The notes beneath the pieces were generated by a model. That model was not told the origin of the DNA, made no database searches, and saw nothing but the letters and a program-made list of their open reading frames with translations. A DNA stretch of 32,459 nt from NCBI GenBank assembly GCA_910592345.1, contig CAJVPI010000374.1, positions 1 through 32,459 on the forward strand, in the 5' to 3' direction. The DNA is from Paraglomus brasilianum (taxonomy: Eukaryota). Shown one piece after another: positions 4,270-21,799 of this stretch (positions are counted from its first letter, which is position 1; every line of letters starts with the position of its first letter). Position numbers and translations under genes: made by a program.

Positions 4270-4665
4270 GGTGTTATATCGTTTTTTTCTTTGATAGATA
4301 CATTTCGGATACAAGTTTCTGTACGAACGCTTTGACTTCATGTTGTGTAATTCCAACGTGTTTCTCATACAGCATAGTGAATGTTTTATGATATTCAAAA
4401 TGAAAGGCCGCAACATGGAATTTCTCTAAGAGAGCTTCTCGTAATTCCTTGTCGTGTAAGTTAGAATTAATCGTTTTTTGATCCGTTGAGAGTTTTCGTC
4501 TGTCGGCTTCTCAGTATAAAATAGACAACCGCTCTTGTTGTCGTAAGTAAGGTCTTTACATCTCCGACGCAAATTGTACTTTGGCACAAAGACACCAGAC
4601 TGAAGATAAGAAACAATATCATTGAAGTCTTCAGGTGTGTCAGGTATTTTCGGTAATTTGACCAT
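4270..4665 (-). mobile_element. Integrase-like (Ginger/gypsy-type H2C2 zinc-binding region) remnant
   Basis: ORF 4426-4665 (IVSYLQSG...NLRRRCKDLTYD...CLFY...KKRLI) continues after frameshifts as REALLEKFHVAAFHFEYHKTFTMLYEKHVGITQHEVKAFV / ETCIRNVSIKEKNDITP. This is an HxxxxH...(C)xxC pattern. No catalytic core follows. Confidence 0.65.
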
Positions 4666-5520
4666 TATAAATGAAGCAACAATATAAAGTAAAGCGGATT
4701 AAGTAAGATAGGATAAACACAAAAAAAGTGCATTTTAGAAAAGAACTGAATCATCGCTATATAACAGTATTTACAGTAATCATCTGATCTTGATTCTTGT
4801 GTAGATATTTCGTAAACCACTAAAAATGGAAGATGGCTAAAGCGGAGTAGAACGTAACCTGATCCATGCAATTACATTAGTCAAATTTTACGTCAACCAA
4901 TGAAATTGTAAATAATCTAACCTATGCCCAAAAATAAAATATAAAAATGGGAATCGTCTGATTATCATATTAATATGGCAATTGGATTTCTTGCATTGTT
5001 TCCAAAATATTGACACGCAATTGTGTACGCAATTAAACGCGCAAAGATCCATACTCTCATCCTCGTGAAATATATAAATAGGACGTAAGAACATAATAAT
5101 AACATTTCTTTAATTTTATCCCTAAAACTCTTATATGATACAGCAATCGTAATATATGCAATACAGTCTGATTGACTTGTGAGAGCCACTGGATGAAGTG
5201 CATGGATAACAATAATAAAGTATGATTTGATTATGATATTTTACGTTGCACTCTATTTATGATATTCCTTATTGCACAATTTAACACGGTGATTATATGG
5301 CAAACTTTTTCTTAGTTCTCATCGCATACACGGTGAATTATAACCACCTTGTAAAATACACGTTATAATTATCTAATGATGATATTTACTATATGACTTC
5401 TTTTTTAACCTTCATCCATATTATCTTGATTAACTAAATTTGTGTATTTGTGCTACATTTCAAATGGTCCTCAAATTTTATCCCAAAAAAGACCCAGATT
5501 TTGTTTTAATCTGATCTGCC

Positions 5521-5845
5521 ACATTAATGCTGATGAAACAGCTCTCTTTTACCATATAAGACACTCTCTTCTCATTCAGTTTCTGGTGTTAAAAAGATAA
5601 AGGATAGGATAATCATTCTACTTGCTTGTAATGCAATTGGGACGGAGAAATTGCTTCTTCCCATATACAAAATACAAAACTCACGACGTATGAAGAATAT
5701 TAACAAAGACACACTCTCAGTACATTACTACTGGGACTCTTCCGCATGGATGCAATCAAGCACTGGCTAAATAAGCTAAATTCCGATATGCGTCATAAAC
5801 AACGAAAATTCTCCTACTTGTTGACACTGCCACTTCACACACACA
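5521..5845 (+). mobile_element. pogo/Tigger DDE_1 transposase catalytic-domain remnant
   Basis: Frameshifted peptides INADETALFY, SGVKKIKDRIIILLACNAIGTEKL, HYYWDSSAWMQ and WLNKLNSDMRHKQRK/LLLVDTATSH are hallmark DDE_1 motifs. Confidence 0.9.
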
Positions 5846-6865: not shown

Positions 6866-7782
6866 CTTTGTGCAAATATGGACCTCATGTTTGTAACAGT
6901 GGATATCGTACCCCCCAGTAATATGACCCGAGATCGGGAACACAGAATAGAGTGCATTTAGGGTATGTACATTTAGGGAATGTGCATTAGGGAGTGTCGG
7001 CTGAAGACTACGCCATCCTATTAAAGCAAATTGGTTGACTATGATCTGGGTACAGTATATTATCCTCTTGAAATACAGCTTTCTTTCCGGGCATTGATAA
7101 AGAGAGTGGATCATCTCATTTAACATAAATGCATTAATGACTGAGTTCAAGAGTAATTCTTGAATAAGAGCGATTAGAACAAGTAGCATCGAATTTATTT
7201 TACTTTATTAGCCACGTCTATTTGCTGACAAGACATTTTCATCGATAAGAGTATCTTTTTGCATTGTAGAAGTCATTCTACCTCAGAACTCGTCAATTTA
7301 GCATTTTCATCTGAAACTTTTTTCGAACAACGGCCAAAAAAATCATAACTATTTATTAGCTTCTGAAGGTAAGTCGATACGTCGTGACTTTTGGAGGCAG
7401 ACATGAAAGAGTAAAAATTTTTGAGACTACATAATTTTAACGTTTTAACAAAGGTATTTAAACAGTGTCTACTCTTATGTCTGGTTTTTTATTTTTTGAA
7501 CATAAGTAATTATCCATTTTTTTTGCTGCTACTAAACACCATTGATAAGAACGTAACCCAGACATACCAATCTATTCACTATTAGGTTATACTATCAAAC
7601 TTCAAAATTAACGCCCGCAACAATCTATTCCAAAGAGGATACGGAATACAACGGGCACAATACATCATAAGCCCCCTCCTCAAACATTTAGCAAAATCCT
7701 TACAACACTCCATTCGACTGCCTACAACCCGTCAACCAACTGACTACAACATAAAGATTACACATCCATCGACTACACAATT

Positions 7783-8644
7783 ATGGCTCGGATTCGGTAC
7801 AGATTCACTGAGGAAAAAAAACGTTGCTATTTCAAGTGTTATTGTTTTAGTTGCTTGTTTATAATTGTGGCTGCTATTATAATACCTATTACAATAGCGC
7901 TTCTCAAAAAAGATCTTCAAATTACGTTCGTGGGGGTGATACCATCACCTGACGAAACAATCTCGTATGCAGATAACAATACTGCATTCACTGCTAACGC
8001 GGGATTTCTTCGGTTTAATGTCTTCAATTCTCTCAGCGTTAAAACAACTGCTAGGATAAGCGCAAAGGTAATTATATTAATATATAAGGATAGTCCATAC
8101 CTGGAACCCATGCCATTTGAGTAATTTTATTTGTTTTCTGCACCTCAGCTGTCTGTTGCTAAATCGTATATTCTTTCCCTTACCCTTTATTCCCGAAAGG
8201 CTTACTATTCTTTTGGTTATACGAACAATTATTTTTACAAAGACGATTATTTTGGAATTGGCAGTCTAGACACACACCTGAAGGCTAAATCCAATACGAC
8301 AATAGATGTGCCCTTCTCGATCGACTATAATACAAATAGAGATTATAATCTGCCTATCATCAACGATATAATCAACAAATGTGGCTTCACTGGGAACAAG
8401 CCACTACCATTGCAAATCTATTATACGGTGAAATTTACTCAGGATATAATAGTATTTATAACACTCAGCGTGAATGATTGCAATGGCTTCACAGACATTG
8501 ATTGTCCATTTAAGGTGAGCGTTCAAGCCAATCGGCTGTTTGTGTAATGGCTTTAACTGATAGACTTTACCTTTCTTTGTACAGGATGGAAAAGTGCCTC
8601 CAATACCTGGTGTTTATATCGGTAATTCAACAGCTAAAAATTAA
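7783..8644 (+). CDS. LEA_2/WHy-like type II membrane protein (3 exons: 7783-8067, 8200-8514, 8585-8644; ~219 aa)
   Basis: A Cys-rich stretch and a single TM helix (CYFKCYCFSCLFIIVAAIIIPITIALL) precede a beta-rich domain (FNVFN...ISAK|AYY...GIGS...SNTTIDVPFSIDY...IINDIINKCG...IDCPFK|DGKVP). The phase-0 GT-AG introns 8068-8199 and 8515-8584 keep the frame. The start codon is uncertain. Confidence 0.75.
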
Positions 8645-10062: not shown

Positions 10063-11107
10063 TCGAAATATGTTCTACTATTGATCGTGAGTCAATTTTT
10101 GTTACTGCTGAGTGTAGCCGTCTTTCTTTATTAAACCTAGGTTAAATTATGTAGCAATAGCACCTATGATTTATCCTGTGATATTAATATGTTAAAAACT
10201 AGCTTTTGTGCGTCTCTGTATAGTTTGGCAATAAAAGTCATGCTCGATATTGTGCGTAGCCGTCTCCAACACACAATTAAAGCGAATGGTTAGCAAGGTT
10301 GTGTTTAGAGCTAAGCTGAGAAATCGCCTGGTCACCAATTAAAAACAACACTCTCAAGAAATCACACATCACATTAATATAACAATATTAATTTTTATTT
10401 TTCGCGAATGATTTTAGGCCACAAAAAGACTCGCCCCGTTTTGCTACGAGTAATAATGTTGACACAACATCATTAACTCTTATTCTTAGCGAACGTATTC
10501 AATCACGAACGCTTTTACTTTATTCTTAAACATGATCTTTCTCAGCGGAAAAGTATTGTTCCAATGAACTAATATGTCCGTAATAGAGCTTTATTTCATT
10601 ATAGCTTTCATTATCGCAGCGGAAGTCTTATAGTTAACAAGCTTTTATATCACTACGTTTATATCGTTCTGCTCCTTCTTCACAATAGTCGCTTCGGGAG
10701 ACTTAAGAACGATTATTCATTATCCTTTCATTCGAACTGATCGTTTTCAATAAGTTCACCGAGTTTCGTTATGCATTAGATTTCATATACTGATATGCAA
10801 GGTCGATCATGTTCAGGATTCCATTTATCAATGGTAATAGTTGAATTATTTTCGAGAATAAGGGTTAGAAATTATTTATTTGGTTGTTTTCAAGTTATCA
10901 AGACCAGATACAAAAAGTATGCAGAAAACTGCTTGGGGAGCAGTCATATTTAAGCATTTTGAGAACTAATTTCTGACTCCACAGCTAATTAATAATACAA
11001 AAATAAATTTTTAGTCATACTAATATAGGAAGAATTGGTAATAAGATATATAAATCCTATATTATAAGTTTTTAGATAAATATAAAGTGTCTGCAATTTT
11101 ATTTGCT

Positions 11108-13793
11108 TCATTGACATAAGTTAAAAAATTCTCTAGACTCCACTCCATCCTCTAATATGGCTTCAACTGCTGTTGCCATTTCTTCAGCAGTCATTTCCTT
11201 CTTCTCAGCAGCTTCTTCCTCCACTGGGTTTTCTTTTAAAGGGTTCTCTTCTTCTGCCTTTTCTTTGCCACTGAGAAGACCAAAATCTATCCCATCCACC
11301 TCATCTTCAATGTGCTTACACCTCCCACCAAGGTTTAGAAGTAAGTCAGCATCTCCTAAAGATTCTAACTCCATCAGTGACTTGGTCATCTCTGGATGAT
11401 GTAATTTGATAACTGGAGTTGGGGTAATAATTGGGGGGGTAGGATTGGTTTCTCCCTTTATCGATTTCAGTGGGATAGTAGTCGTCTTCTCCTTCTTCAA
11501 AGGCACTTTGTCCTCTAATTCTTCTGCTTTCCTCTTCATACCACTTGGCCTCAATTTCTCATCTCCTTTTATATTTTCTAGCCTCTTCTTTTCTTCACTG
11601 GGGGAGCCCAAAAAAATCTTCCTCAGGCATAGTCTCTCCTCTCCTTTGATCAAAGGTCCTAAAGACCCACCTTGCTTTGTCATAGATATACTCTCCAAGT
11701 CTTTTATAGGGAGACTTGGTTTCTCCCTGTTTATACCAGTTGACATTTGTTCTTTGGACTGGTTTGGAGGGCTCATAGATTTTTTATGGGAATTAGGGTC
11801 CTCTTCTTTTTGGGCAGTTGGCTGGACTGAATTGGAGCCTGGCTCCTTGGTCTTTTGCTTGGTTGGGGTCCTAATTCTGTAGACCCTTGTGTGGTATTCC
11901 TCATCACTTGTCCACATGGGTGTTGTGGTACCTGTGGGGTAATACTTTTGTCCCAGGTGGTTTTTGTGGATGTTGTGGAGTTTGTGTCAGACTCTGTGTC
12001 ACTGGTGGCTTGGGAGTGGCTTGGTTGAGAGATGGCTTGGGCAGGGGGCAGATATTGCTTGCTGGAAGTCATTTTCCTGCAGGCATCTTCCACTCTTCAA
12101 TAATCTGACTTGCAGAGGGATTAAACTTCCAGCTTCTGGCCCACTGGAAGCCATTGCACTCATTGTATGACTGGATGAGTTCCCTATTCTTGATTGCAGT
12201 GAGGAGGGAGAACATTTCTCCAATTGTTGATTTTGGCTTTCCCCAGATCAGGAGTTCATTGAGGATTGTCCAGAGGGAGACCACTTTCTGATTTTCTCTT
12301 CTGATCTCCATATAATTTCCTGTTGATCATCATCCTTAAAGAGACAATGGTTGGTACATAGGAGCCTGATAACTTTTCACAAAGCAAAATTAATATTAAG
12401 ACAAAAAAAAATTGTGTCAAAAATAATGTAACCTAATACTAACTGTTTCAGCTTGCTTTTGATATATTTATCATGCAATTTGCATGCTGGCAGACTAGTT
12501 ATGCTGAGGTACTCTATAAATATAAAAAAGTGTCTCATTAGATTATTAGCTTACTGAACATTAAGATCACTGAACATTCAGCAATTAGAAACCATCGGAA
12601 CTATTGTAATATGTAAATCTATATTAATATCTAGTCTTTTTTTTTTGTACAAGCATGACAAAAAAACAAACCTTTCATAAGCCAAAGTGAATAGTCATAA
12701 GACACTGAAAGAGTTTCTCTGTTGATTAATACTCCACACCATAAAAAGTCTAAATAAATACAATTTAGTAAATAGTGTTAAATACAAAGAGATTAATGTA
12801 GAAAAAAAAATTTTTTTGTTTGAATAATCTAAATATCATTTTCAATGACAGGAGATTCTGGTAAATGAACCTTGGATTTTATCTTATTGGTATGCCAACC
12901 ATAGTTTGGAAATCCTGGTCATATTAACATTAAAATTATTTACAAAATATAAAAAAAACAATAATGAATACTGTAAATATCATAAACTCTATACCATTTT
13001 CTATTTTGCTCACAAATGTTCTCACCAATTCATCATTGTGAGAAATTATGAGCATATCATCAATGCAGTTTTGGAAGACCTATGTGTGTTAAATAATGTT
13101 ATAGTAATAAAAAGTATTATTACTATAAAAATGCATTTTAATTTTACAATATACTGTCACACTTACACAGTCTTGCGATAGCACAAATGCCAGCTCTTCT
13201 TTTATTAAATTATTAAAGACTTGTCTAGCAGACCAAATTATATAGCCATTAATATTATATATTAATACAATACAAATACAAAGTAAAAGAATACCAATAT
13301 ACAATACCTGTAAACTGCATCAGATATTAATGCTCCTTGAGGAATCCCTCTTTTATACTTGTAATAACCACCATTGATCTGATTTTTTAATCTATGTTAA
13401 TGAGTATATTTAATATTTACCAATGTTATGTTCTAATAATGTATTAGCATAATTATAATGTGGCAAAAATCTTAACCTTAAATGTGGTTTCTGTTACAAA
13501 CTGCCCAATGGTTCTCATCACCTGTTCTTGAGAGAATGTCTCAACCTTCTTGATGAGAAATACCTTCTCATTCTTGCTAGGTCTGGGATTGGCAATCATC
13601 TCTTGAATAGATTCATCTACATCAGAATTTATCTCTATAAATAATAATATCTTAACATAATATTAATATATAACACTTGTGCAACTCAATTACCTGAAGG
13701 TGATGCAACCATTTTTACAGCAACAAGTGAAAAAACATTATATTCTTTACATTGTAAAGTTTGTTCTTTCATCACTTGTAGTAGCTTTTCTTG
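11108..13793 (-). pseudogene. TERT: Divergent telomerase reverse transcriptase (TERT)-like gene, multi-intron, 5'-truncated and disabled
   Basis: Exons 13793-13694, 13634-13477, 13378-13308, 13224-13167, 13079-12995, 12914-12837, 12749-12672 and 12513-12444 splice in consistent phases. They give QEKLLQVMKEQTLQCKEY...FVTETTFK|INGGYYKYKRGIPQGALISDAVYR|QVFNNLIKEELAFVLSQDC|VFQNCIDDMLIISH...FVSKIENG|FPNYGWHTNKIKSK...|DFLWCGVLINRETLSVSYDYS (IFD, motifs B', C, D, E). The donor at 12836 is AT rather than GT, and stops occur in the 3' part. Including 11108-12372 in the gene is tentative. Confidence 0.85.
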
Positions 13794-14500
13794 TTATAAT
13801 TAGACTTGCACTTGAAATGCAATAAACGGGGAAATATTCGTCTAGACATGTGTTTATCGTTATAATCCGTATAATCGTTAATCACACAGGCCCGGGAAAT
13901 GGCAGGCATGGTGTCATATCGAGAATAGCCAAGCCAAAAGAAGAATGCGTTTGCGGCAAACAATTCACTGATAGCCTGATCTTTGTCGTGTCGTTAAGTT
14001 CGACTCGCCTTAATGATGCCGCGAAGCTACTGTTAGAACCGTGCATGAAACTCGTTAGCAATTACAAAATTATCATCCTCACATTTTACCTTTCTAGCTC
14101 GTTGGCTAGTCTTATACCATCTTGCTTTAGATTCGAACACAACCACGACGCCAGTAGTTCCACGAGCAATTTCACTGTTCCAGTATCACTTGTTTGCATA
14201 AACATCTATTACAACGTATTTTGTAAGATTCTCAGATCCGATGGAAGTCGTCCCGAATGTATGACCCATCGCCCACGCAAACAGTGAAGTGAAGGCTTAC
14301 TGCCGAACGTAGGGAAATTATCGAAAGTCATCCATGACACTTGTTCCCATGCTCCATAGCGCGCTGCAAGCTGCTCGTGGTCATAATTGTCGTCTCATCG
14401 TCAGACCGTCTTTTACGCCCTCTGCGTAGCTACGAGCACTCTCAGCAGCCAATTTGGGACCTAATATGAGACCTTGCACCGTCACGGTGGTTCGGATCTT
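13794..14500 (-). pseudogene. Decayed spliced gene of unknown family
   Basis: CpG-rich segment with GTAAGC...TAG and GTAAAA...GCTAAC...CAGTAG intron-like signals. The spliced reading DNYDHEQLAARYGAWEQVSWMTFDNFPTFG|NVYANK*YWNSEIARG...RARK|LRGIIKASRT*RHDKDQAISELFAANAFFFWLGYSRY contains stops. Confidence 0.35.
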
Positions 14501-14688
14501 ATAAACTATTGTTTGTGTTTCAGAATCATGCATTTATAAATTTTATTGGGATATAAAAGTACGAAAGTCGGTTGAAAGTAGGGCAATATTTTTGATAATA
14601 CATGTGTATCAAATCATCTAGAGACATAATTCGAACAACAAGATTGAGATTAAGATTAAGATTTTAATCTACATTTCATTTCTTCATG

Positions 14689-14736
14689 TTTGGCAATGAT
14701 CAACACCGAAAAAACGCCTTTCAATTTTATACTAGT
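14689..14736 (+). repeat. Dispersed short repeat, copy 2 (copy 1 at 2374-2430)
   Basis: TTTGGCAATGATCAACACCGAAAAAACGCCTTTCAATTTTATACTAGT, matching copy 1. Confidence 0.6.
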
Positions 14737-14965
14737 ACCTAACTATTTATCCTATATGATTTCAGGAAATGTGACGGCTTTTGCTATCATGAATCGATAG
14801 GCAAATGACAAAGCAGTCAACCATGCACAAAGAAACTAGCATTCTCAATATCACACTGTATCTAAATTTACTTTATTATTGAATTGAACACCATCTTTTT
14901 TATTTACATTCAGTTCTCAAAACATGCCAATGGACATCAACCATCTCCTACCGACCATTTTCTCT

Positions 14966-17879
14966 TCACTTTCCTCCTCCAATAAAATCAAAAACATTTT
15001 CACCTAAGCCAGCCTCATTCATCACACGCCATAGTTGTCTCTCAGCTTCGTACACACCGTCAATGACTGGATCAACGATGGAGGTGTGAGCGTCGATTAA
15101 GCGTAGATGAGAAGAGAGAGAGTGCTTAAGATTGGATAATGAATCGGGCGACGGTGGCGACTGTTTAAAGGAATGCATGAAGGCAAATCAATAGAAATAG
15201 GGACTGTTAGTCGTGAGGGTGGAAACGGAGGAATAGTTAGTTTATCCTTCTCTCCATACTCACGGTCCATGAGACGTCTGTAGTCACATGAGTAAGATAT
15301 TTTTTGATTAAGTCGTTGTCGATGTCAACAAGATCATCCGGATCTTCCACCTCCTTCAGTAGAGGATGAAGCTAATAGGTTTGTATTAATTCAACCCAAA
15401 AGGGACGAGACAATAGACTTGATTAACTCTCATGGTACATTCCACGTTTATCGTACACACGGTATACAAATACATAATACGACAATCGCAGGTACCTTAG
15501 ATTTCTGCAAGGAACGATTTCTTGAATCGACCGACTTTTTAGCACTTTGCAAGCTCTTTAAGAATTCCGATTCTTCTTTTAATAGTCTACATATAAAAAA
15601 AGACACCTTTTATATCAATCTAGCCTTCCCCTGTACAACTCCCACTAAAGCAAAGATGCTCACCGCTTTTCTTTCTCCAACTGCATCTCCATTTGTTTTA
15701 TTTGGTCTGTTTCCTGTACCAGTAAAGCTTCAAGATCTTGCTTGTAAACATAATAATTTATATTAATAAAGACCCTTTAATAGACCGTAAAACGCGATAA
15801 GGAAAATGGGAAATATACATGATGCAAAGATAGCTTCTTGTAATCGAGACTACTGGTCGCGTTTGTAGCCACTGGAACAGTCAGGGTATCCAAGGATTTG
15901 CTTATTCTATTGGGATACAACAGGGTGTGAGACAAGCAAAAAGTAAAGCGACATACATCTGATAGCACTTACTGTAAAATCAACTTGTCCAATTCAACCT
16001 GCAGTTGCTTCCTCCGTGATGCTCCATTTACGTGGGCCAAGACGGCTCTTGAAGAAATACAGACAAACAACAATAAGACTCTCCGCGAATGTACTTCCCA
16101 TCCCACGTATTCTTACCCAAATATTCTCTCATGTCTAATCACGACGCTCTTTTGTCACTGGTGCCTATGTCAAAGACAAAATTTCAAAAGCTACTCACGG
16201 TACAGCATTTCGTAACAGCTTGTTGATAAGCCGTTTCGACGCAGCATCAAGTGGCCTCCATCTATTCTTTACTATTGATGAAGACACTGAACGTACTGTC
16301 TTTATAAGCGTCGTTGAAGATGAAGCAGGAGCTACAAGAGTAGGGATAATTAGGAACTATAGCGTTTAGACATTCAAACCCGATTGTCGTGCTATATTAA
16401 CTTTTATACCTTGACTTTCGGAATCATCATATTCAACGTCTTGCATCTCTTCATCCTCTTCGTCTTCTTTCACTTCTTTACCCCCTACAATCGCATCCCT
16501 CTCTTCGTCCTCGTACTCATCATCACCATCCCCTTCCTCCTCGCCACTCTTCTCCATTGTCCAATCGTCGTTTTCCTCATCATCTAAAATAACTCTCGCT
16601 CTCTTAAACCTTCTACTACTACTCTCGCGCCTTAAAGAACGTGTATTTTCTTCCACAATTTCACAATCTACTGCTTCAGCTATAGTGTCTACAGTTTCTC
16701 TTCGCGAGCTTCTCGGTGTTGTTATTCCTACCATTAATTCATCTATGAAAAAACCTTGATCAGCTACTCGAATTACCTCATTACCTGCTTCTTGAACTAA
16801 TTCATCAGCTACTTCATCAGATAGTCCACTAGTCACTTCATTAGCTAGTTCACCAACTAACTCATTAACTGCTGTGTCAGAAATTTCATCAGCCACTTCA
16901 TCAGGTGCCTCATCAGCCACTTCATCAGCCACTTCATCAGATAGACCACTGACTACTTCATCTACAGGTTCAACAGCTACCCCACCAGATACTCCACTGG
17001 TTCCTTCATCTGCAGGTTCATCGGCTATTTCGCCAGCTATTTCATCCACCATTTCATCTGCTACTTCATCTGCAACGTCATCCATTACTTCATCAGATAT
17101 TTCATTATTTATTTCATCCACAACTTCATTTGTCTCGGTTTCTATTTCTTCTATTGCATTTTCGACTGTCGTTCCCTCCACTGTTGCTGGTTCTGTCGTT
17201 ACTTCTACCACGACGGCTACAGTTACTCCTGGTGCAGCTATAGGAGATGCCATCTCTTCTTGATCTGATATTACATCTGTTGTTGCAAAATTCGATACAT
17301 TTTCTCTATTTTCATCAATACTAGCATTCTCTTCCTCCTCAATTCCTTCTACTTTATCTCCTTCATCATCTTCTTCTTCTTTTCTTGTCTGCGTCCTCTT
17401 AGGTGAGCCATTTTCCTTTTCTATACTCGCTTTTGACTCTAAATATTCGTCCACCGTTCGTTTCCTCAAATTCCTCCTCTCGGCGGTCGACGGAAGCTTG
17501 ACCAATTTTGCAATCACATCTGACGTGGGATCGGAGGCTTCACGATGGGAATTACCAGCAAGACGCTTAGAGTAACGAGTTAGTCGCGTGCGCGATTTCG
17601 TAGGAGGAGAGTGGGGAGAAGAGCGTGAGCGGGAAGGAGAGGAAGGTTTGGAATTGGTGAGAGCATTTGAACGTGTGCTTGAGCGCGTTTGATGCAAGCG
17701 TGTTTTTAAGCGTGAGCGGGAAGGTTTGGAATTGGTGAGGGCATTTGGACGTGTACTGGAGCGCGTTTGGTGCAAGCGTGATCTCAAACGTGTTTGCACG
17801 ACCTGTCTTGAGAAAGAAAAGTATTATAGAAGGGGAAGTACAGAGAAAAGAAGAAGAAAGGCAGAAAAGAACTTACCAT
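14966..17879 (-). CDS. CENPQ: CENP-Q/Okp1/Fta7-like inner kinetochore protein with long disordered N-terminus (9 exons, ~720 aa)
   Basis: Exons 17879-17877, 17802-16410, 16331-16199, 16047-15973, 15906-15819, 15740-15664, 15586-15496, 15371-15264 and 15160-14966 are all GT-AG and total 2163 nt open. The C-terminal part (IVKNRWRPLD...LLRNAVPAVL...LDYKKL...DLEALL...coiled coil...KLHPLL...SLSSHL) matches the pattern of fungal CENP-Q proteins. Confidence 0.8.
16790..17130 (-). repeat. Coding 12-nt repeat encoding (DEVA)-like tetrapeptides
   Basis: Repeated TTCATCAGC(C/T)AC units on the + strand encode VADEVADEMVDEIAGEIADE...SDEVADEVADEAPDEVADE. Confidence 0.8.
17642..17782 (-). repeat. 78-nt coding tandem duplication (26-aa period)
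   Basis: RLHQTRSSTR[P/S]NALTNSKPS occurs twice. The DNA copies begin at 17642 and 17720. Confidence 0.85.
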
Positions 17880-21159: not shown

Positions 21160-21799
21160 ATGGACGTTGATAGTCCGAGGGATGCGCCTTTGATTGTGGA
21201 TGATCTGGAGCTTACACCAGACAAGCTTGACTTTGTAAGGCCCGTTTTTATGTTACATATGACTTTTATAGTTTTTATGTCTTGCAATCATGCATCAGAT
21301 ATTGTTTAACATCTATCTTTTCTATTTACGATCAGACTGTTGGCCCTCATGGAGATAAGACCACCATCACGTTCGTTATAAAGAATGAAGATCACACTCT
21401 TGGAAATGCATTAAGATTCATGATAATGAAAAAGTGTGTATACTATTATATCGGGTTTTGCGTTTGATATGGATTGCAAGATATGAATTGTTAACTCTTG
21501 ATATGGTGATAGTCCCGAAGTCACATATTGTGGTTATTCAATACCTCACCCGTCAGAAGCAAAGCTTCACTTGAGAATTCAGACAACGAGTATGTATAAA
21601 CTGGTTTCTGATTCTAAGTAACGTCACCTGCTGACGACTTTCTTATCGTTCTGATTTAACTTCATCAGGCAACACAGATGCAATAAGTGCTCTCAAAAAA
21701 GGGTTACTTGATTTGGAAAAAATGTGTAGACATATACAAAAGGAGTTTACAAAGTCTGTTGAAGAGGGAAACTATGAGTGTGAAGTCGAAGCACCATGA
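21160..21799 (+). CDS. RPC19: DNA-directed RNA polymerases I and III subunit AC19/RPAC2 (4 exons: 21160-21234, 21336-21433, 21513-21589, 21669-21799; 126 aa)
   Basis: [46 protein letters not shown]...[13 protein letters not shown] is the RPB11/AC19 signature with the AC19-type [10 protein letters not shown]. All introns are GT-AG. Confidence 0.95.

What the first reader, a model, noticed from the sequence alone, without database searches (positions are those of the whole stretch)
12444..13793. Hidden, divergent, intron-rich TERT-like reverse transcriptase
Seen: eight small minus-strand exons (58-158 nt) splice in consistent phases into an RT domain. It has YYKYKRGIPQGALIS (motif B'), QNCIDDMLIIS (motif C, catalytic DD at ~13061-13056), GFPNYGWHTNKIKS (D) and FLWCGVLINRETLSVSYDY (E), preceded by an insertion-in-fingers-like segment starting QEKLLQV. 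Known: GIPQG, GFPxYG and WCGxxI with an IFD are typical of telomerase RT, and TERT is normally single-copy. Inference: departures from consensus (QGA for QGS, QNCIDDML for LRxxDDFL) in an otherwise open frame suggest a distinct TERT paralogue lineage that evolved under constraint before inactivation, rather than a decayed copy of the host TERT. It could belong to an amplified or mobile TERT-derived family.
Basis: partly seen in the sequence, partly recalled or inferred. Interest (0 to 1): 0.92.

Follow-up and report, generated by a model that had tools for sequence, protein, structure and literature searches.

The report
Broken second telomerase gene in fungus
This is a cut-off, dead middle piece of a telomerase gene in what is likely a soil fungus; a related copy that keeps the catalytic residue missing here occurs in the same sample, and the pattern of differences suggests both copies likely worked for a long time before this one broke.

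Summary
The RT is real and is TERT. Nine minus-strand exons (13795-12324) splice into 240 stop-free codons with IFD, B', C, D, E and thumb motif E-I, at near-human spacing. It is a dead fragment: it breaks just after motif A, ends early in the thumb, has an 11-codon in-frame deletion, and intron 6 begins AT instead of GT. Multi-copy DNA flanks both breaks, and soil contigs bridge both, so this is not an assembly error.

Public contigs show a sister copy in the same sample and in two soils. It shares the intron positions that could be compared, keeps motif A and runs on upstream. It also shares the odd motif C (QNC-[IV]-DD), so that oddity does not mark this copy as a separate lineage. The copies differ at dS about 0.4-0.5 and dN/dS 0.16-0.29, and this one has no stops, so it was constrained until recently.

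Best reading: an old second TERT gene, recently pseudogenised. No sign of a mobile or amplified family. Not seen: the sister's N-terminus, any third TERT, and proof that both copies lie in one genome.

The parts
13694..13795 (-). Exon 1 stump: start of the IFD (QEKLL). Broken at about 13796, so motif A is gone. 33-nt in-frame deletion at 13716/13717 relative to the sister.
   Evidence: X4 record 8; loose end at 13795; table 5c
13477..13616 (-). Exon 2, IFD. An alternative in-phase acceptor lies at 13634.
13308..13378 (-). Exon 3, motif B' (GIPQGA)
13167..13224 (-). Exon 4, B'-C linker
12995..13079 (-). Exon 5, motif C (IDD, 13061-13056)
   Evidence: the sister keeps DD
12837..12914 (-). Exon 6, motif D (GFPNYG, N..K)
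12750..12836 (-). Intron 6, starts AT instead of GT; likely a dead donor
   Evidence: the base is the same in X1 and X3 contigs
12672..12749 (-). Exon 7, motif E (WCGVLI)
   Evidence: only PDB hits are human TERT, E 0.17-0.84; similarity to P0003/P0004 is concentrated in the exon
12444..12513 (-). Exon 8, start of the thumb (CTE)
   Evidence: a sister piece is laid up to 12496 (X5 joint)
12324..12365 (-). Exon 9 stump, CTE motif E-I (HCLFKD); TERT likeness stops here
   Evidence: compared by eye with hTERT printed in PMC12137546
13833..13894 (.). End of a high-copy repeat, about 40 nt from the 5' break
   Evidence: 31-nt contigs at depth 3900 and 1450 against 25 and 8; different loose ends at 13892-13894
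11036..12323 (-). Unrelated multi-copy ORF family abutting the 3' break
   Evidence: X1 records 3, 4, 6 and soil pieces end at 12323; no family assigned

Best explanation
This is a truncated piece of a telomerase reverse transcriptase gene that lacks its first catalytic aspartate, likely an old second copy of the host's TERT that probably stayed functional for most of its history and was only recently inactivated. Step 1 (inferred): a DNA-level duplication, since introns are shared, gave two TERT genes. Step 2 (shown by dN/dS and the lack of stops): both copies kept evolving under purifying selection while introns diverged beyond alignment. Step 3 (breaks shown, cause inferred): rearrangements at repeats removed everything up to and including motif A and most of the thumb; a donor G-to-A change and a 33-nt deletion go with this decay. 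Step 4 (follows from known TERT biology): with no TEN, TRBD, motifs 1, 2, A and only two of three catalytic aspartates, the fragment cannot bind telomerase RNA or polymerise. Step 5 (inferred): the sister copy is the working telomerase.
For: Motif order and spacing match hTERT as printed in PMC12137546 (counted by hand; window numbers): B' to DD 39 vs 38, DD to motif D 22 vs 22, motif E to E-I 52 vs 53, sister motif A Asp to Q 10 vs 10. Exon 7 hits only human TERT among 177,635 PDB sequences (weak E). The sister appears in 4 of 6 runs laid (X1, X4, X5, X6), at depth 8.8 vs 7.3-8.5 in X4 and 4.7-5.5 vs 3.0-4.7 in soils. It continues 682 nt (X4) and over 1 kb (X6) upstream, and its first 30 extra letters read as motif A in the exon-1 frame (by hand). 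Exon differences listed: 13 synonymous and 12 non-synonymous of 25, dN/dS 0.16. Exon 2 alone, 20 of 22 listed: dS 0.43, dN/dS 0.25-0.29, Fisher p 0.004-0.015. If this copy had been dead since the split, 6-10 stops would be expected; 0 are seen (P 0.0025 to 5e-5). Decay since inactivation is about 0.01 substitutions per site, upper bound 0.04-0.07. Both breaks are bridged by soil contigs with 0-1 differences.
Against: No genome is held, so it is not shown that the two copies share one genome. The sister is at depth 4 vs 333 in X1 and is not among X3's 5 laid records. Its motif C lacks the Arg of LRLVDD and its motif A reads FE for YD, which is odd for a sole working telomerase. No Pfam family recognised any exon or frame, and exons 3 and 6 gave no PDB hit. 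dN/dS rests on 25 differences from a table that showed 40 rows and hid 30; hidden changes in the 3' half of exon 5 (14 in X5) could raise it. The stop-count test assumes an even split of dS and an exon model chosen for an open frame. The two soils are one study. A hybrid origin gives the same signature.
Confidence: 0.6

Rival explanations
1. Homeologue or introgressed copy: the fragment was the ordinary TERT of a related lineage, entered this genome by hybridisation or nuclear mixing, became redundant and decayed, like Nicotiana TERT_O. No long coexistence of two working paralogues is needed.
For: It predicts exactly long constraint followed by recent death. PMC7916837 (Discussion read) reports TERT_O pseudogenised in Repandae polyploids, with an in-frame deletion.
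Against: No sign of second copies of other genes, but this was barely tested: the stretch laid (10500-16500) holds no conserved host gene.
Confidence: 0.2
2. Both this copy and the sister belong to a divergent TERT side-branch, possibly amplified or mobile, kept beside a canonical TERT that is under 80% identical.
For: Shared departures from consensus (no Arg before DD; FE in motif A). P0001 is a near-identical exon 7 with other flanks.
Against: Only one sister seen in 6 runs. No terminal repeats. Introns kept. No relative in 62 viral candidates. P0001 may be an allele or a chimeric protein assembly.
Confidence: 0.12
3. The sister belongs to a co-occurring relative, and this fragment is the wreck of the host's only TERT, meaning telomerase was recently lost.
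For: No other TERT motif in the window.
Against: The sister is at equal depth in X4 of the same sample and travels with this copy in both soils. Depth in X1 varies widely between contigs (12 to 333).
Confidence: 0.06
4. A Penelope-like or LINE reverse transcriptase, or a chance pattern.
For: No Pfam hit, and PDB E-values are weak.
Against: A long A-B' insertion (about 100 aa), WCG motif E, the E-I motif, 8 introns, human-like spacing, and 0 of 300 in shuffles.
Confidence: 0.02

Closest known systems
TERT (human, PDB 7qxa/7trd/7bg9; sequence printed in PMC12137546)
   Same: IFD, B', C, D, E and E-I in the same order with near-identical spacing; motif D aligns without gaps with G, P, Y, G, N, K kept; motif E is the PDB hit.
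   Different: Only about a quarter of the gene. No TEN, TRBD, T, 1, 2, A or most of the CTE. QGA for QGS, QNCIDD for LRLVDD, shorter D-E linker (29 vs 40).
Extra and pseudogenised TERT copies in plants (Nicotiana TERT_O and TERT_D, Populus, Vigna, Mimulus; PMC7916837, abstract and Discussion read)
   Same: A redundant TERT copy that decays by in-frame deletion, fragmentation and association with high-copy repeats.
   Different: Here a fungus-like host, no polyploidy shown, and deep divergence (dS about 0.45) with constraint up to the recent past.
Two full-length TERT genes in petalurid dragonflies and partial copies in Hetaerina (10.1101/2025.05.20.653629, passages read)
   Same: Long-kept TERT duplicates and partial extra copies.
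   Different: There both copies are full length, tandem and transcribed. Here one copy is dead and linkage is unknown.
Penelope-like endonuclease-deficient retroelements (relation to TERT: PMC7658794 passage; motif details recalled)
   Same: Related RT; can retain introns (recalled).
   Different: This fragment has TERT-type B', D, E, the IFD and the thumb motif; no terminal repeats or telomeric repeats in the window.

Membership tests
TERT | RT motifs B', C, D, E in order with TERT spacing | tested here: met
   hand count against hTERT; PDB hit for motif E
TERT | Insertion in fingers between A and B' (PMC2943602 passage) | tested here: met
   Q to G of GIPQG: 90 aa here, about 101 in the sister, 108 in human
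TERT | Catalytic triad: one Asp in motif A, two in motif C | tested here: not met
   The window copy has only DD; motif A is lost. The sister has all three (by hand).
TERT | N-terminal TEN and TRBD (CP, QFP, T) and motifs 1, 2 | tested here: not met
   No T, 1, 2 or A pattern anywhere in the window; no Pfam hit upstream. Not visible for the sister.
TERT | C-terminal extension E-I to E-IV | tested here: inconclusive
   E-I-like HCLFKD is present (by-eye match); the rest is cut at 12323.
TERT | Placement within TERT in an RT tree or by a TERT profile score | not testable with these tools
   No full-length TERT protein could be fetched, and the remote tools take no spliced peptide.
TERT | Binds telomerase RNA and adds telomeric repeats | not testable with these tools
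   Needs bench work; not expected for this fragment.
Penelope-like / mobile RT | Terminal repeats, endonuclease or telomeric-repeat junctions | tested here: not met
   Window self-blast and telomeric-repeat search negative; no nuclease family in flanks.
Penelope-like / mobile RT | Many genomic copies | tested here: inconclusive
   One sister at 80% or more in 6 runs; contigs show presence, not absence; copies under 80% are invisible.
TERT pseudogene (duplicated, unprocessed) | Disabling lesions with introns retained and a more complete copy elsewhere | tested here: met
   5' and 3' truncation, AT donor, 33-nt deletion; sister with motif A. Same-genome location is inferred.

The most novel reading that the evidence does not exclude
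This fungal lineage keeps a separate, selected clade of divergent TERT paralogues (no Arg before the catalytic DD, FE in motif A) beside a canonical telomerase. The sister would be a live second TERT with its own job, such as another template RNA, repeat or non-telomeric synthesis, and the window copy a recently dead member of that clade.
Probability: 0.12. Interest if true: 0.8.

Novelty: new member of a known kind. Interest (0 to 1): 0.4.

Why it matters
Most eukaryotes carry one TERT (PMC7658794 passage). Known extra copies are mostly in polyploid plants and a few insects. A fungus in which two TERT genes were both under selection over dS of about 0.45 would add a kingdom to that list and raise the question of what the second one did. 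My paper searches listed no such fungal case, but the library lacks most subscription journals and I opened no supplements. The sister also appears to be a divergent TERT that the protein collections did not return as a full-length protein. The fragment itself is dead and has no function of its own.

Tried and rejected
No whole genome held. Pfam on 56 ORF pieces and 9 read-through frames: no RT or TERT family. PDB: no hit for exon 3, exon 6 or the D+E frame. Word-based homologue searches: 3, 2 and 17 candidates, none scoring. Full HMMER scan: 3 hits, of which P0002 is a repetitive chance match and was dropped; P0001 and P0003 are exon-7 ORFs. Metagenome pattern scan for motif B': 48 loci, none TERT; most look like gyrase B by eye. 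This spent the one scan, so the 8.7-kb contig behind P0004 could not be fetched. Prokaryote genomes: 3 of 40 candidates, spirochaete matches at 45%, treated as chance and not examined further. Viral contigs: 0 of 62. Atlas: no hit of 0.9 or more for exon 7 and nothing usable for the downstream ORF. No RNA holder listed. Run X18 (same species label, another study) gave no cover over the exons, which is no evidence either way. Earlier findings: nothing for this genome or sequence. Transposon capture with paired ends: the 13882-13894 end has no partner in the window. U12 splicing of intron 6: ATATTT does not fit the RTATCCTT consensus (recalled). One search had exon 6 mis-set by two bases; this was fixed and does not touch the codons counted. 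Passages of PMC5405514, PMC12449055 and PMC9498494 gave nothing on fungal TERT copies.

Full report
Observation. On the minus strand, short GC-richer blocks alternate with AT-rich introns. The model 13793-13694, 13616-13477, 13378-13308, 13224-13167, 13079-12995, 12914-12837, 12749-12672, 12513-12444, 12365-12324 gives 240 codons without a stop. Seven of eight introns are GT-AG; intron 6 starts AT. The only in-frame GT alternative deletes the N..K half of motif D. Motifs B', D and E never co-occurred in order in 300 shuffles. Assembly is sound: one X3 contig spans 12280-13960 with 1 difference and an X1 contig covers 12169-16500 with none, though these runs may be the source of the window. Soil contigs from one other study bridge the 5' break (X5 13736-13890, X6 13744-13941, 0 differences) and the 3' break (X6 12280-12355, 1 difference).

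Identity. Exon 7 finds only human TERT in the PDB (E 0.66-0.84 alone, 0.17-0.23 as a profile). Other exons and Pfam gave nothing, so the case rests on anatomy. Against hTERT as printed in PMC12137546 (passage; counted by hand): B' to DD 39 vs 38, DD to motif D 22 vs 22, D to E 29 vs 40, E to E-I 52 vs 53. A 90-aa segment lies in the IFD position; the IFD is a TERT-specific feature, and the catalytic triad needs an Asp in motif A (PMC2943602 passages). No T, 1, 2 or A pattern exists in the window. The fragment is about a quarter of a TERT with two of three catalytic aspartates. P0003 and P0004 are metagenome ORFs whose likeness is concentrated in exon 7, which supports its boundaries; they may be the sister or an orthologue.

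Host and setting. The source is coded 'organism A'; near-identical DNA occurs in soil metagenomes. Neighbours include an RPC19-like gene (Pfam RNA_pol_L_2) and, by eye, a peptidyl-tRNA-hydrolase-like gene, both with short introns, a TPR+LRR ORF and transposon relics. I infer an ordinary chromosome arm of an AT-rich fungus; the lineage was not determined. No telomeric repeats are in the window.

The sister. Laying contigs at 80% likeness showed a second, diverged locus in X1 (depth 4), X4 (8.8), X5 (4.7-5.5) and X6 (5.4), and not in X3 or X18. It matches exons 1-5 and part of exon 8, with joints at introns 1, 2 and 3, which differ in length and sequence. It has 33 more bases in exon 1 and continues past 13795. 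Its next 30 letters, read by hand in the exon-1 frame, give DISSCFENM before KQEKLL, which is motif A with the Asp 10 residues before Q as in human. Around motif C the listed changes are three synonymous and one I-to-V, so the sister also has QNC before DD. This assumes the table is complete there, which I judged from how its rows are ranked. The Ala of QGA lies just outside the readable part.

Timing. Of 25 listed exon differences, 13 are synonymous, and 16 fall at third positions (dS 0.53, dN 0.085). Exon 2, where 20 of 22 differences are listed, gives dS 0.43 and dN/dS 0.25-0.29. A copy dead since the split should carry 6-10 stops and 5-8 splice-site hits; it has 0 and 1. The decay clock gives about 0.01 substitutions per site, upper bound 0.04-0.07, against a branch of about 0.2-0.25. 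So this lineage was constrained for most of its separate history. Caveats: 30 of 70 rows were hidden, the branch split is assumed even, and there is no outgroup.

What broke it. The 5' break lies about 40 nt from the end of a high-copy repeat (13833-13894). The 3' break falls at 12323, where an unrelated multi-copy ORF family begins. No paired termini were found, so I infer repeat-associated deletion or rearrangement, not capture in an element.

Comparison. Extra, decayed or fragmented TERT copies are described in Nicotiana, Populus, Vigna and Mimulus (PMC7916837, abstract and Discussion), and duplicates in dragonflies (bioRxiv 10.1101/2025.05.20.653629, passages). Searches listed no fungal case; supplements were not opened.

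Verdict. A real TERT fragment, dead, with a more complete sister. Old duplicate recently pseudogenised 0.6; homeologue or introgression 0.2; divergent side-branch beside a canonical TERT 0.12; sole TERT lost 0.06; not TERT 0.02. New member of a known kind; interest 0.4.

Noticed in passing
window 14530-13895 (minus): Heavily decayed gene with a weak Pfam Apiosidase-like hit (E 0.024, below cut-off); related copies elsewhere in the source run.
   Followed up: partly
window 12323-11036 (minus): Multi-copy family with a broken 5' part and a 292-aa low-complexity ORF (11986-11111); another copy joins 11036 to 12207; no family found.
   Followed up: partly
window 10500-10900: Very high-copy repeat (depth up to about 11,500 vs 333 in X1).
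   Followed up: no
window 22792-27483 (minus): 1564-aa intronless ORF with TPR repeats and about 19 28-aa leucine-rich repeats, NLR-like by architecture.
   Followed up: no
window 21160-21800 (plus): Intact-looking RPC19/AC19-like polymerase subunit gene with short introns; a good probe for the hybrid hypothesis.
   Followed up: partly
window 28460-29390 (plus): Peptidyl-tRNA-hydrolase (ICT1-like, GGQ) gene with short introns, recognised by eye.
   Followed up: no
window 5537-5767, 4277-4698, 1115-1741: Transposon relics: DDE_1 (E 5.5e-8), integrase H2C2 (E 0.001) and an unassigned broken ORF with a 29-nt inverted pair.
   Followed up: no
window 16369-17823 (minus) and 7744-8544 (plus): Acidic 485-aa ORF with a 12-nt tandem array; a LEA_2-like membrane-protein gene (weak, E 0.12).
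   Followed up: no
P0001 versus window 12750-12590: Near-identical exon 7 and start of intron 7, then unrelated sequence: an allele with an insertion, a third copy, or a chimeric assembly.
   Followed up: partly
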